Assembly: GCA_964536485.1 (NCBI GenBank)
Contig: CAZHXX010000003.1
Coordinates: 28,101 to 92,100, forward strand
Reading direction: 5' to 3'
Origin: an uncultured Candidatus Saccharibacteria bacterium
GTDB lineage: Bacteria; Patescibacteriota; Saccharimonadia; Saccharimonadales; SZUA-47
DNA length: 64,000 nt
The translations under genes and the position numbers were made by a program. Of the stretch, positions 59,325 to 59,578 are shown piece after piece. Position 1 is the stretch's first letter, and each line of letters starts with the position of its first letter. A model generated the notes under the pieces. It worked only from the letters and a program-made list of their open reading frames with translations, was not told the DNA's origin and did no database searches.

Positions 59325-59578
59325 AGAACCAGCCTTTACTCCAAAAAACCGAGAAAATGAGACAGATGATAAAGGAGTCATTGCCGAGGACTTGTCCGGC
59401 TACTCCTTTTAAGTAACTACCCGGACCGCTCTAGCGTTCCGCAAGGCACCTTTGTCATCTGTCTGTATTTTCATCGCTTGTTTTTGGGGAGGCTGCGGAC
59501 TTTTTGCATACTTTTGAGACTGTAGTCAAAAGTATGGCGTGGGGTGAAAGGGGCTGGCACTAGCCCCTATGGTTTTTT
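59325..59578 (+). ncRNA. unclassified structured RNA-like element, copy C
   Basis: Near-identical to copy B over the outer helix and junctions; inner hairpin replaced by GTCCGG/CCGGAC; 3' hairpin CATACTTTTGA-GACTGTAG-TCAAAAGTATG; terminator GGGGCTGGCACTAGCCCC plus TTTTTT, identical to copy A. Confidence 0.6.

What the first reader, a model, noticed from the sequence alone, without database searches (positions are those of the whole stretch)
59325..59578. Copy C: near-identical to copy B except a swapped but still self-complementary inner hairpin, and a terminator shared with the inverted copy A
B and C are almost identical through the outer helix and junction motifs. The ~34-nt inner hairpin is the exception: AACCGCAATATTCCTTTTCAGCAACTATTGCGGT in B against TGTCCGGCTACTCCTTTTAAGTAACTACCCGGAC in C. 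It keeps the TCCTTTT loop core and a paired stem. The 3' hairpin is also re-written (CTTACTTTTGC/GCAAAAGTAAG against CATACTTTTGA/TCAAAAGTATG). The terminator stem GGGGCTGGCACTAGCCCC is identical to that of copy A 15 kb away on the other strand, whereas B has a different terminator. This mosaic suggests module exchange between copies, or a specificity-determining variable hairpin. Copy C sits immediately beside the methyltransferase/nuclease cassette.
Basis: seen in the sequence. Interest (0 to 1): 0.6.

Follow-up and report, generated by a model that had tools for sequence, protein, structure and literature searches.

The report
Multi-copy structured RNA with shuffled modules
Copy C is one of five copies here of an unannotated, highly structured RNA gene family (about 250 nt) of Saccharibacteria-like bacteria; its "swapped" hairpin is an ordinary base-paired stem that co-varies, and the mosaic reflects recombination between copies, but the family and its 3' pseudoknot, which is shared across phyla, have no known function.

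Summary
Copy C (59328-59578, +) and copy B (46427-46670, +) share 94%-identical outer-helix arms. Their inner hairpin is only 66% identical, and C carries copy A's terminator.

The window holds four full copies (A-D) and one 3'-only remnant (E). No Rfam family matches them.

Related copies from Saccharibacteria genomes and metagenomes support the fold by compensatory changes:
- a 30-46 bp basal helix;
- a three-way junction;
- the inner hairpin, with all 7 stem pairs co-varying;
- a 3' H-type pseudoknot.

G.U pairs outnumber A.C mismatches 60 to 5, so the constraint acts on RNA of this strand.

The inner hairpin is not hypervariable. Between positional orthologues it is more conserved than the basal arms. 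Hairpin, pseudoknot and terminator each occur as discrete variants that are re-assorted among copies and genomes. That supports module exchange by recombination, not a specificity-determining hairpin.

The 3' pseudoknot also follows all four TwoAYGGAY (RF01731) matches I examined in gamma-proteobacteria, and it occurs in many other phyla. The 5' domain is specific to Saccharibacteria.

Verdict: a new variant within a TwoAYGGAY-like class of multi-copy structured RNAs; function unknown.

The parts
59329..59374 (+). Copy C: 5' arm of the long basal helix P1, including the conserved AAAACCGA motif (59345-59352)
   Evidence: It pairs with 59450-59495 in the minimum-energy fold. P1 has 30-46 bp in all 15 family members folded, although their sequences differ. 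Many P1 pairs carry compensatory changes in the RNAalifold consensus.
59375..59391 (+). Copy C: junction strand J5, GAGUCAUUGCCGAGGAC. GAGUCA forms an internal loop. UGCC and GGA are the 5' halves of helix P2.
   Evidence: It is nearly invariant in 19 cores. UGCC/GGCA shows compensatory changes, to UUCC/GGAA and to UGCU/AGCA. In copy A, GGA/UCC is replaced by a continuous helix.
59392..59426 (+). Copy C: inner hairpin P3. The stem is GUCCGG/CCGGAC (59394-59399 with 59421-59426). The loop at 59400-59420 contains CUCCUUUU and the conserved AGUAACUA.
   Evidence: All 7 stem pairs show changes on both sides, 95.5% of cells are paired, and slid controls give 31-54%. The same stem variant occurs in L149a, L149b, L171 and L189.
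59427..59449 (+). Copy C: small hairpin P4 (CGCUCUAGCG), then junction strand J3 (UUCCGCAAGGCAC), which closes P2
   Evidence: The stem length varies among members (CGCUUGCG, CGCCCCUUGCGGGCG, CGCUCGAAGAGCG). The P2 pairs were counted.
59450..59495 (+). Copy C: 3' arm of basal helix P1, including the conserved UCG..GUUUUU motif
   Evidence: B differs here at 3 positions; one of them makes a G.U pair.
59496..59536 (+). Copy C: 3' H-type pseudoknot module. The 5' strand CGGAC (59496-59500) pairs with loop bases 59518-59522. The linker UUUUUG is 59501-59506. The hairpin is 59507-59517 with 59526-59536.
   Evidence: Over 98 distinct sequences from many phyla, the 5-bp pseudoknot helix is 93.9% paired with 3 co-varying pairs, and the 11-bp hairpin is 98.3% paired. 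Slid controls reach at most 58%. Copy C has one A.A mismatch in the pseudoknot helix.
59537..59578 (+). Copy C: tail and intrinsic-terminator-like hairpin GGGGCUGGCACUAGCCCC (59550-59567), followed by a U-rich run
   Evidence: The terminator scan calls 59549-59568 with tail ATGGTTTTTT. The same variant is in copy A, L085a and L149a.
46427..46670 (+). Copy B: same arms as C, hairpin variant ACCGCAAUA (as in D and L085b), own pseudoknot variant, and a second terminator variant (as in L189 and L059)
   Evidence: 83.7 bits with model R1.
44459..44712 (-). Copy A: variant junction in which P2 is continuous (GCGGUAAG/CUUACCGC), hairpin variant CCAAAAG, and the same terminator as C. It is divergent to B.
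   Evidence: 26.3 bits, E 3e-4. It sits in the same position as L056m, upstream of the S11 peptidase gene.
61130..61420 (+). Copy D: full copy with different arms and an extra inserted hairpin of about 62 nt (61241-61302) inside J3
   Evidence: 65.9 bits. Its orthologue L085b lacks the insertion.
60400..60500 (+). Copy E: 3' module only (motif at 60413-60453). Its pseudoknot pairing is degenerate, so it is probably a decayed or deleted copy.
   Evidence: The pairing was checked by eye against the scheme.

Best explanation
Copy C is a member of a multi-copy family of independently transcribed, terminator-ended structured RNAs of about 230-290 nt. The family belongs to a Saccharibacteria (Patescibacteria) lineage.

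Fold, 5' to 3':
- a 30-46 bp basal helix P1, variable in sequence, with one conserved internal loop (AAAAC-C-GA / UC-NNN-GUUUUU);
- an internal loop GAGUCA;
- helix P2;
- a three-way junction carrying the inner hairpin P3 (variable stem, conserved loop) and a small hairpin P4;
- directly after P1, an H-type pseudoknot whose U-rich linker may lie in the groove of a U4/A4 helix;
- an intrinsic terminator.

The stem "swap" between B and C is neutral compensatory variation of P3. B and C keep the same loop, junctions and arms, so they are functionally equivalent paralogues.

The mosaic (B/C arms, B/D hairpin, A/C terminator) comes from homologous recombination or gene conversion between paralogous copies. 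The breakpoints fall in the invariant junction and pseudoknot sequences.

Working model of function (inferred, not shown): a trans-acting RNA or RNA-protein scaffold. The pseudoknot shared across phyla would be a generic handle for protein binding or for protecting the 3' end. The conserved P3 loop and the junction would be the effector surface. In B, C and D the P3 loop reads CUCCUUUU, complementary to the local Shine-Dalgarno sequence AAGGAG.
For: Shown:
- No Rfam family matches, even at E<=10.
- The window holds four full copies and one partial copy.
- Folds are very stable, z about -7.
- The RNAalifold consensus has 45 pairs, 31 with compensatory changes.
- P3 has 7 of 7 co-varying pairs, and P2 has compensatory changes.
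- P1 forms in 15 of 15 members despite different sequences.
- G.U pairs outnumber A.C 1x1 mismatches 60 to 5, and one pseudoknot pair is G.U in 72 of 98 sequences. This fixes the strand and argues for RNA.
- Covariation of the pseudoknot holds across phyla.
- A, B and C have terminator-like hairpins with U tails.
- Neighbouring genes are unrelated to one another and often convergent.
- Copies are kept at syntenic positions in genomes whose flanking proteins are only about 60-78% identical: A~L056m, B~L056p, D~L085b.
- Modules re-assort, also in independent assemblies.

Inferred: base triples in the pseudoknot, protein binding, and an anti-Shine-Dalgarno role for the loop.
Against: - No expression data exist, and no sigma-70-like promoter was called upstream of C.
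- The CUCCUUUU half of the loop is present in only some paralogue groups; others read ACUUAAAA or CUUCUUAU.
- No partner protein is known.
- With a 6-nt linker spanning an 11-bp helix, a contiguous triplex is geometrically doubtful.
- Clustering, divergent doublets, variable genes between copies and a decayed copy (E) also fit a selfish or recombinogenic element.
- Gene conversion is inferred from identity patterns, not from a formal recombination test.
Confidence: 0.6

Rival explanations
1. The inner hairpin is a programmable specificity element (guide-like or recognition code) that differs between copies so that each copy addresses a different nucleic-acid or protein target.
For: Stem variants are discrete and conserved at sequence level across genomes beyond what pairing alone needs: GUCCGG in C, L149a/b, L171 and L189; ACCRCAAUA in B, D and L085b. 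The 5' half of the loop also comes in paralogue-specific versions.
Against: - The differing bases are fully paired and change by compensatory substitution.
- B and C keep the same loop.
- The hairpin is more conserved than the basal arms between orthologues, 94% vs 72-78%.
- It matches nothing elsewhere in the window at up to 2 mismatches.
- The whole of copy C, hairpin included, matches nothing in phage or plasmid collections.
- No nuclease, recombinase or reverse transcriptase is consistently adjacent.
Confidence: 0.1
2. The copies are a non-autonomous mobile or recombinogenic DNA element (MITE- or REP-like). The basal helix would be terminal inverted repeats, and the structure would matter at the DNA level.
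For: - There are five copies in 17 kb.
- All four doublets seen are divergent: window A/B, and L056, L029 and L226.
- Gene content between conserved copies differs between genomes: L056 lacks the two genes (a HAD-type hydrolase and an aldo-keto reductase) that sit between A and B, and L085 has other genes between its C-like and D-like copies.
- Contigs break inside copies (L085, L118).
- The TwoAYGGAY preprint proposes mobile-element-like expansion.
Against: - Arm sequences differ between copies while pairing is kept, the opposite of transposase-recognised inverted repeats.
- There is a strong G.U over A.C asymmetry.
- No target-site duplications and no flanking short-repeat arrays were found.
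- Copies are retained at syntenic sites across deep divergence.
- Terminators are present.
- Only 4 viral contigs carry the motif.
Confidence: 0.15
3. It is a Csr/Rsm-type protein sponge, as proposed for TwoAYGGAY RNAs, and acts through GGA motifs.
For: It shares the 3' module, the basal-stem architecture and the multi-copy habit with TwoAYGGAY. The junction contains GAGGAC, and some Saccharibacteria variants read CAUGGAC.
Against: - RF01731 does not match.
- The GGA lies in a helix (GGA/UCC), not in a hairpin loop, and copy A replaces it by other pairs.
- A model of the 5' core finds nothing in TwoAYGGAY loci.
- No csrA was found in the sequence held, although this is only a small sample.
Confidence: 0.07
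4. The mosaic is an assembly artefact: B and C were mis-joined across their identical repeats.
For: The identical stretches (47 nt and about 70 nt) flank the hairpin. An independent Logan contig (L118) ends exactly inside copy C, at 59373.
Against: Both kinds of module combination occur in independent assemblies: L149a has a C-type hairpin, pseudoknot and terminator, and L189 has a C-type hairpin with B-type pseudoknot and terminator. Even if the hairpins were swapped between the two loci, two near-identical scaffolds with different hairpins would remain.
Confidence: 0.05

Closest known systems
TwoAYGGAY RNA (Rfam RF01731), in its extended form described for Pseudomonadota in bioRxiv 10.64898/2026.09.22.753630
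   Same: - The 3' pseudoknot module is the same. It follows all four RF01731 matches examined in Vibrio (L026) and Psychrosphaera (L034).
- A long basal stem encloses internal hairpins.
- Many copies per genome, clustering and divergent doublets.
- No fixed neighbouring gene.
- Function unknown.
   Different: - No match to RF01731, even at E<=10.
- No AYGGAY hairpin loops.
- The 5' core (GAGUCA loop, P2, three-way junction with P3 and P4) is found only in Saccharibacteria loci.
- No 5' GMTBT repeat arrays or REP arrays.
- Intrinsic terminators take the place of the GUCGC..GCGAAAC hairpin.
Multi-copy paralogous small-RNA families with C/U-rich loops that pair with ribosome-binding sites, such as Listeria LhrC and streptococcal csRNAs (from my own knowledge)
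   Same: Several paralogues lie in one region, each ends in a terminator, and in B, C and D the conserved loop reads CUCCUUUU, complementary to AAGGAG.
   Different: This RNA is far larger and far more structured. The C/U-rich loop half is not shared by all paralogue groups, and no targets are known.
H-type pseudoknots with a U-rich strand in the major groove, such as the telomerase RNA pseudoknot and the SAM-II riboswitch (from my own knowledge)
   Same: The topology matches: 5' strand, U-rich linker, then a hairpin whose loop pairs back. The U4 linker, U4 and A4 tracts are invariant while the flanking pairs co-vary.
   Different: Base triples are not shown. The linker is short for an 11-bp helix. 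There is no ligand or template context, and no Rfam riboswitch model matches.
REP/BIME-type extragenic repeats and MITEs
   Same: Multi-copy, extragenic, palindromic, associated with variable regions, and they break assemblies.
   Different: Pairing is maintained by compensatory change with a G.U bias. Arm sequences are not conserved. There are no target-site duplications. Copies stay orthologous over long divergence.

Membership tests
TwoAYGGAY RNA (RF01731) | Scores at or above the Rfam gathering threshold (43 bits) with the RF01731 covariance model | tested here: not met
   There is no RF01731 match in the window at gathering threshold, nor around copies A-E at E<=10. The positive controls L026 (47.8 bits) and L034 (40.9 bits) do score.
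TwoAYGGAY RNA (RF01731) | [quoted passage not shown] | tested here: not met
   There is a basal stem, but the only GGA motif (GAGGAC) lies in a junction strand paired to UCC. Copy A replaces it. The P3 loop has no AYGGAY.
TwoAYGGAY RNA (extended model of the 2026 preprint) | A 3' pseudoknot following the basal stem | tested here: met
   The same motif, GGNNNUUUUGNNUACUUUUG-N11-AAAAGUA, with a co-varying pseudoknot helix, occurs in window copies A-D and after all four RF01731 matches in L026 and L034. That it equals the pseudoknot drawn in the preprint is inferred from the text only.
TwoAYGGAY RNA (extended model of the 2026 preprint) | Multi-copy, with enrichment of divergent doublets | tested here: met
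   There are five copies in 17 kb. All four doublets seen are divergent: window A/B, L056, L029 and L226. The sample is small.
TwoAYGGAY RNA (extended model of the 2026 preprint) | Arrays of GMTBT(T) 5-6-mers upstream, or REP arrays downstream | tested here: not met
   There are 1-2 motif hits in the 200 nt upstream of each copy, against a window background of 1.4 +/- 1.2.
Guide-RNA-like element with a variable specificity segment | The variable segment is accessible and complementary to targets elsewhere, and a cognate effector gene is adjacent | tested here: not met
   The variable bases are paired. The hairpin matches nothing elsewhere in the window, and copy C as a whole matches nothing in phages or plasmids. 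Neighbouring genes are unrelated to one another.
MITE / REP-type mobile repeat | Conserved terminal inverted repeats, target-site duplications, and strand-symmetric constraint | tested here: not met
   Arms differ between copies. There are no flanking duplications. G.U pairs outnumber A.C mismatches 60 to 5.
Stand-alone small-RNA gene | Own promoter and intrinsic terminator, with expression as a discrete transcript | tested here: inconclusive
   Terminator-like hairpins with U tails were called for A, B and C. A promoter-like site was called for A only. Expression cannot be tested with these tools.
Triplex-forming H-type pseudoknot | U.A-U base triples between the linker and the helix | not testable with these tools
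   Only indirect support: the U4, U4 and A4 tracts are invariant in members selected through the 5' core, independently of the pseudoknot pattern, while the flanking pairs co-vary.

The most novel reading that the evidence does not exclude
The 3' pseudoknot defines a superfamily of multi-copy RNAs spanning many phyla: Patescibacteria, Oscillospiraceae, gamma-proteobacteria, Bacteroidota, Fibrobacter and Desulfuromonadales. In this reading the pseudoknot is the functional core, either the handle for a still unknown conserved partner or the element that lets the copies spread. The 5' domains are interchangeable, lineage-specific cargo. In Saccharibacteria the copies form divergent doublets and arrays that exchange modules and bracket variable gene cassettes. 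They would then act as recombination anchors that shape these minimal genomes.
Probability: 0.2. Interest if true: 0.8.

Novelty: new variant of a known kind. Interest (0 to 1): 0.6.

Why it matters
Saccharibacteria have tiny, densely coded genomes. A 2022 TM7x transcriptome preprint states that they have no validated small RNAs. A family of large, strongly co-varying RNAs, with at least five copies in 17 kb, is therefore a notable investment for such a genome.

The family gives a structure-supported candidate for the first abundant non-coding RNA of this lineage. Its 3' pseudoknot ties it to TwoAYGGAY RNAs and to short high-copy elements in gut Oscillospiraceae. One uncharacterised RNA module may therefore be shared by very distant bacteria. 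Module re-assortment between copies also gives a natural set of chimeras for testing which parts carry function.

Tried and rejected
- Known RNA families: Rfam at gathering threshold and at E<=10 found nothing on any copy. ARAGORN found only tRNA-Leu at 9899-9986.
- TnpB/IscB-type guide RNA: in other phyla many elements lie next to a convergent ORF of about 400 aa. By my reading of their translations, without a family search, these ORFs are unrelated housekeeping genes, such as adenylosuccinate synthetase, glycyl-tRNA synthetase and a DapE-like enzyme.
- Retron or reverse-transcriptase template: no reverse-transcriptase family was found among the 20 ORFs scanned between 43.3 and 63.4 kb.
- Coding potential: C contains a 19-codon ORF (59358-59417), but D has an early stop in the equivalent frame, and the variation is compensatory rather than codon-like.
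- Hammerhead, K-turn and Y-RNA resemblances of the AAAACCGA/UCG..GUUUUU loop: considered by eye only, no support.
- Metagenome scan with TTGCCGAGGACN{35,55}CGTTCCGCA: most of the 120 hits were chance matches in GC-rich coding DNA. About 11 loci were genuine (L149, L156, L171, L184, L189, L191, L192, L226, L238; L226 and L149 each carry two copies).
- Targets of the hairpin in the window, and similarity of the whole copy C to phages and plasmids: none.
- csrA in the sequence held: none found, which is uninformative.
- Target-site duplications and upstream 5-mer arrays: none.

Full report
**1. Checking the observation**

A BLAST of this stretch against the window finds:
- copy B at 46428-46638 (83% identity over 216 nt, E 1.6e-59);
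- the 3' part of a minus-strand copy A at 44460-44548;

A motif shared by all copies, TGCGGNNNTTTTGNNTACTTTTG, occurs five times at up to two mismatches against 0.01 expected. The fifth site, E at 60413, has only the 3' part.

A pairwise alignment shows B and C identical over 47 nt through the 5' arm and junction, with three substitutions in the 3' arm. They differ in the inner hairpin, in parts of the 3' hairpin and in the tail. By module, B vs C identity is:

| Module | Identity |
|---|---|
| Arms | 94% |
| Inner hairpin | 66% |
| Pseudoknot module | 79% |
| Tail | 74% |

The 18-nt terminator stem GGGGCTGGCACTAGCCCC is shared by C and A; B has another. C folds at -103.2 kcal/mol (z = -7.0) and B at -97.5 (z = -6.4).

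**2. What the element is**

No Rfam family matches any copy, at gathering threshold or at E<=10.

The flanking genes are unrelated to one another:
- S11 peptidase, HAD hydrolase, aldo-keto reductase and hemolysin-III around A and B;
- a LexA/S24/C5-methylase fusion and an ORF of a PD-(D/E)XK endonuclease family before C;
- ORFs without Pfam matches around D and E.

Three of the five copies are convergent with the next gene, so a cis-regulatory leader is unlikely.

The window is probably from a Saccharibacteria genome. Its closest relatives among the fetched loci are MAG contigs labelled Candidatus Saccharibacteria (L056, L085). L056 has syntenic genes whose main tblastx segments are about 60-78% identical at protein level.

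**3. Related copies and the fold**

A genome-collection scan with the 3' motif returned 117 loci. A metagenome scan with the two junction motifs added about 11 genuine loci among many chance hits.

*Core.* Nineteen distinct cores (junction, inner hairpin, junction) were aligned.
- On my explicit structure, the inner hairpin stem has changes on both sides at 7 of 7 pairs, with 95.5% of cells paired.
- Sliding the partners by 1-3 columns drops pairing to 31-54%, and the covariation score falls from 0.44 to at most 0.11.
- Helix P2 (UGCC/GGCA) shows compensatory changes to UUCC/GGAA and UGCU/AGCA.

*Whole RNA.* RNAalifold on 14 full-length members predicts 45 pairs, 31 with compensatory changes. 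These include the long basal helix.
- Folded singly, 15 of 15 members form 30-46 bp between their 5' and 3' arms, although the arm sequences differ.
- In these folds G.U pairs outnumber A.C 1x1 mismatches 60 to 5, and the given strand folds better than its complement in 11 of 16 cases.
- The constraint therefore acts on a single strand of this polarity, the strand that carries the terminators. This points to RNA.

**4. The 3' module is a pseudoknot shared across phyla**

In 124 distinct instances of the motif, the highest mutual-information column pairs are exactly those of one structure. An 11-bp hairpin carries a loop whose first five bases pair with the five bases that precede the U-rich linker.

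Counted formally on 98 distinct sequences, the pseudoknot helix is 93.9% paired. Three of its pairs change on both sides, in 49, 24 and 28 sequences. The hairpin is 98.3% paired, and slid controls reach at most 58%. One pseudoknot pair is G.U in 72 of 98 sequences.

The U4 linker, U4 and A4 tracts were fixed by my search pattern. However, members found through the 5' core alone keep them (as U4-5/A4-5) while the flanking pairs vary. This fits U.A-U triples, but they are not demonstrated, and a 6-nt linker is short for 11 bp.

The module occurs in Saccharibacteria and other Patescibacteria, many Oscillospiraceae MAGs, Kangiellaceae, Vibrio, Psychrosphaera, Fibrobacter, Bacteroidota and Desulfuromonadales. 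It is rare in viral contigs, with 4 hits.

**5. Link to TwoAYGGAY**

In Vibrio locus L026, Rfam's TwoAYGGAY (RF01731) matches at 47.8 bits and runs into the module. In Psychrosphaera locus L034, three matches just below threshold (40.9, 38.5 and 34.9 bits) are each followed by the module.

A September 2026 preprint reports that TwoAYGGAY RNAs of Pseudomonadota have:
- an elongated basal stem, extra hairpins and a 3' pseudoknot;
- medians of 11-23 copies per genome;
- frequent doublets, 68% of them divergent;
- flanking repeats.

Their function is unknown. Csr/Rsm sponging and mobile-element-like spread are offered there as ideas.

The window family shares the 3' module, the basal-stem plan, the multi-copy habit and the divergent doublets. 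All four doublets seen are divergent: window A/B, and L056, L029 and L226.

It fails the defining tests of RF01731:
- no covariance-model match;
- no AYGGAY loops;
- its GGA lies in a helix, which copy A replaces by other pairs;
- there are no upstream 5-mer arrays.

A covariance model of the Saccharibacteria 5' core finds 29 matches in Saccharibacteria loci and none in the TwoAYGGAY, Kangiella, Oscillospiraceae, Fibrobacter or Geopsychrobacter loci searched. I therefore file it as a new variant of this kind, not as a member of RF01731.

**6. The mosaic**

Each module occurs as discrete variants that recur in different genomes.

*Hairpin stems:*
- GUCCGG in C, L149a/b, L171 and L189;
- ACCRCAAUA in B, D and L085b;
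- CCAAAAG in A, L184, L226 and L056.

*Terminators:*
- T1 in A, C, L085a and L149a;
- T2 in B, L059 and L189;
- T3 in D, L056, L085b and L029;
- T4 in L171, L064, L082 and L083.

The combinations differ:
- L171 and L189 have identical bodies but unrelated terminators.
- L189 joins a C-type hairpin to B's pseudoknot and terminator.
- L149a joins C's hairpin, pseudoknot and terminator to other arms.

In the orthologous pair D/L085b, the hairpin (94%) and pseudoknot (93%) are better conserved than the arms (72-78%). A and its positional orthologue L056m share the hairpin variant, though their junctions differ.

So the hairpin is not hypervariable, and the arms are the fastest-evolving part. The B/C pattern (arms 94%, hairpin 66%) needs recent homogenisation of the arms or replacement of the hairpin. 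Either way, this means recombination between paralogues, for which the invariant junction and pseudoknot sequences offer homology.

Assembly chimerism cannot be excluded without reads. An independent Logan contig stops inside C at 59373. But the same kinds of combination occur in independent assemblies.

**7. Genomic behaviour**

L056 has the order S11 peptidase, divergent RNA doublet, glutathione peroxidase. The window has the HAD and aldo-keto reductase genes between the two copies of the doublet, and hemolysin-III after B.

L085 has a C-like 3' end followed 1.2 kb later by a D-like copy, with different genes in between.

The copies are therefore stable landmarks around which gene content varies. 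This fits either recombination anchors or simply a variable region.

**8. How it probably works**

*Shown:* a conserved multi-helix fold on one strand, terminator-like ends for A, B and C, paralogous copies kept over long divergence, and module exchange.

*Inferred:* the RNA is transcribed on its own and acts in trans, probably together with protein. The pseudoknot would be a generic handle or a 3'-end-protecting fold. The conserved P3 loop (..AGUAACUA) and the GAGUCA loop would be the functional surface. The variable helices would be spacers.

In B, C, D and their relatives the loop reads CUCCUUUU, complementary to the Shine-Dalgarno sequence AAGGAG seen upstream of an ORF in each of two related loci, L059 and L082. 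Other paralogue groups lack this sequence. B and C would then be redundant, and the stem swap neutral.

I give about 0.8 to the identity claims (an RNA family, a co-varying stem, recombination) and about 0.3 to the functional model. The overall figure of 0.6 reflects both.

**9. Novelty and score**

The class is known: TwoAYGGAY-like multi-copy structured RNAs, whose 3' pseudoknot was noted in a 2026 preprint. I found three things described nowhere:
- the Saccharibacteria 5' domain;
- the spread of the pseudoknot module across phyla;
- the re-assortment of modules.

A 2022 TM7x transcriptome preprint states that this organism had no validated small RNAs.

Interest is 0.6. The family is a solid, structure-supported new RNA family in an under-studied lineage. 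The specific idea that prompted the finding, a specificity hairpin, is not supported, and the function remains open.

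Noticed in passing
window 60400-60500 (+): Copy E consists only of the 3' pseudoknot-type module, and its loop pairing is degenerate. Just before it lies GGAGTC..ATTG..AGG, which resembles the junction motif. E may be a deletion derivative, formed between the similar sequences CCGAGGAC (junction) and GCGGAC (pseudoknot 5' strand).
   Followed up: partly
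window 61241-61302 (+): Copy D carries an extra hairpin of about 62 nt inserted into junction strand J3. Its closest relative, L085 1277-1510, lacks it.
   Followed up: partly
window 57205-58821 (+) and 58813-59283 (-): A single ORF combines a LexA DNA-binding domain, an S24 peptidase and a C5 cytosine methyltransferase. Its 3' end overlaps, on the opposite strand, the 3' end of an ORF of a PD-(D/E)XK endonuclease family. A repressor-like domain fused to a methylase in what looks like a restriction-modification pair is unusual. The same fusion gene is called on an independent Logan contig (L118).
   Followed up: partly
L002, L003, L013, L038, L077 and many other Oscillospiraceae loci: A high-copy element of about 100 nt consists of one hairpin, the same pseudoknot module, and a GUCGC..GCGAAAC hairpin that resembles a CRISPR repeat end. 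It often lies just past the stop codon of a convergent gene that looks, from its translation, like a housekeeping gene. No Rfam family matches it.
   Followed up: partly
window 59584-59609; L056 about 3330-3380 (-) and about 3830-3876 (+): A second short conserved sequence, CAAAAAATGAGAGCCRTGGGTATGGG, follows copy C and copy L056p. In L056m a related sequence replaces the usual 3' module and can form an analogous pseudoknot (GGCAG..CUGCC with CUCUCGUUUUU/AAAAAUGAGAG). Its meaning is unclear.
   Followed up: no
window 44459-46670; L056 3250-3880; L029 7121-7401; L226: Copies come as divergent doublets. In the window the pair A/B is split by two genes (HAD hydrolase, aldo-keto reductase) that are absent from the syntenic L056 doublet. 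L029 repeats the arrangement of a variant-junction copy on the minus strand next to a standard copy on the plus strand.
   Followed up: partly
window 44768-45244; L085 1533-2099 and about 5258-5476; L189 about 4378-4566 and about 6215-6442: Distantly related HAD-family hydrolase genes (about 28-33% identity) appear in several loci that carry RNA copies. In L085 one starts 23 nt after the end of an RNA copy. This may be coincidence.
   Followed up: no
window 59358-59417 (+): A 19-codon ORF (MRQMIKESLPRTCPATPFK) runs through the 5' arm and hairpin of copy C. The frame is not kept in copy D or in relatives, so it is not taken as coding.
   Followed up: yes
upstream of many family members, e.g. 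window 46417-46422, L184, L189, L226, L056: A short motif, (T)GTAGC, lies 3-8 nt before the CCAGCC start of the basal helix. In several members it can pair with GCUGCGG, the pseudoknot 5' strand, as an alternative structure. In L226 GTAGCTATTA also follows both copies.
   Followed up: no
window 47905-50828 (-): Two large adjacent ORFs (500 and 472 aa) have no Pfam match. They lie next to a DUF2130 gene, between copies B and C.
   Followed up: no
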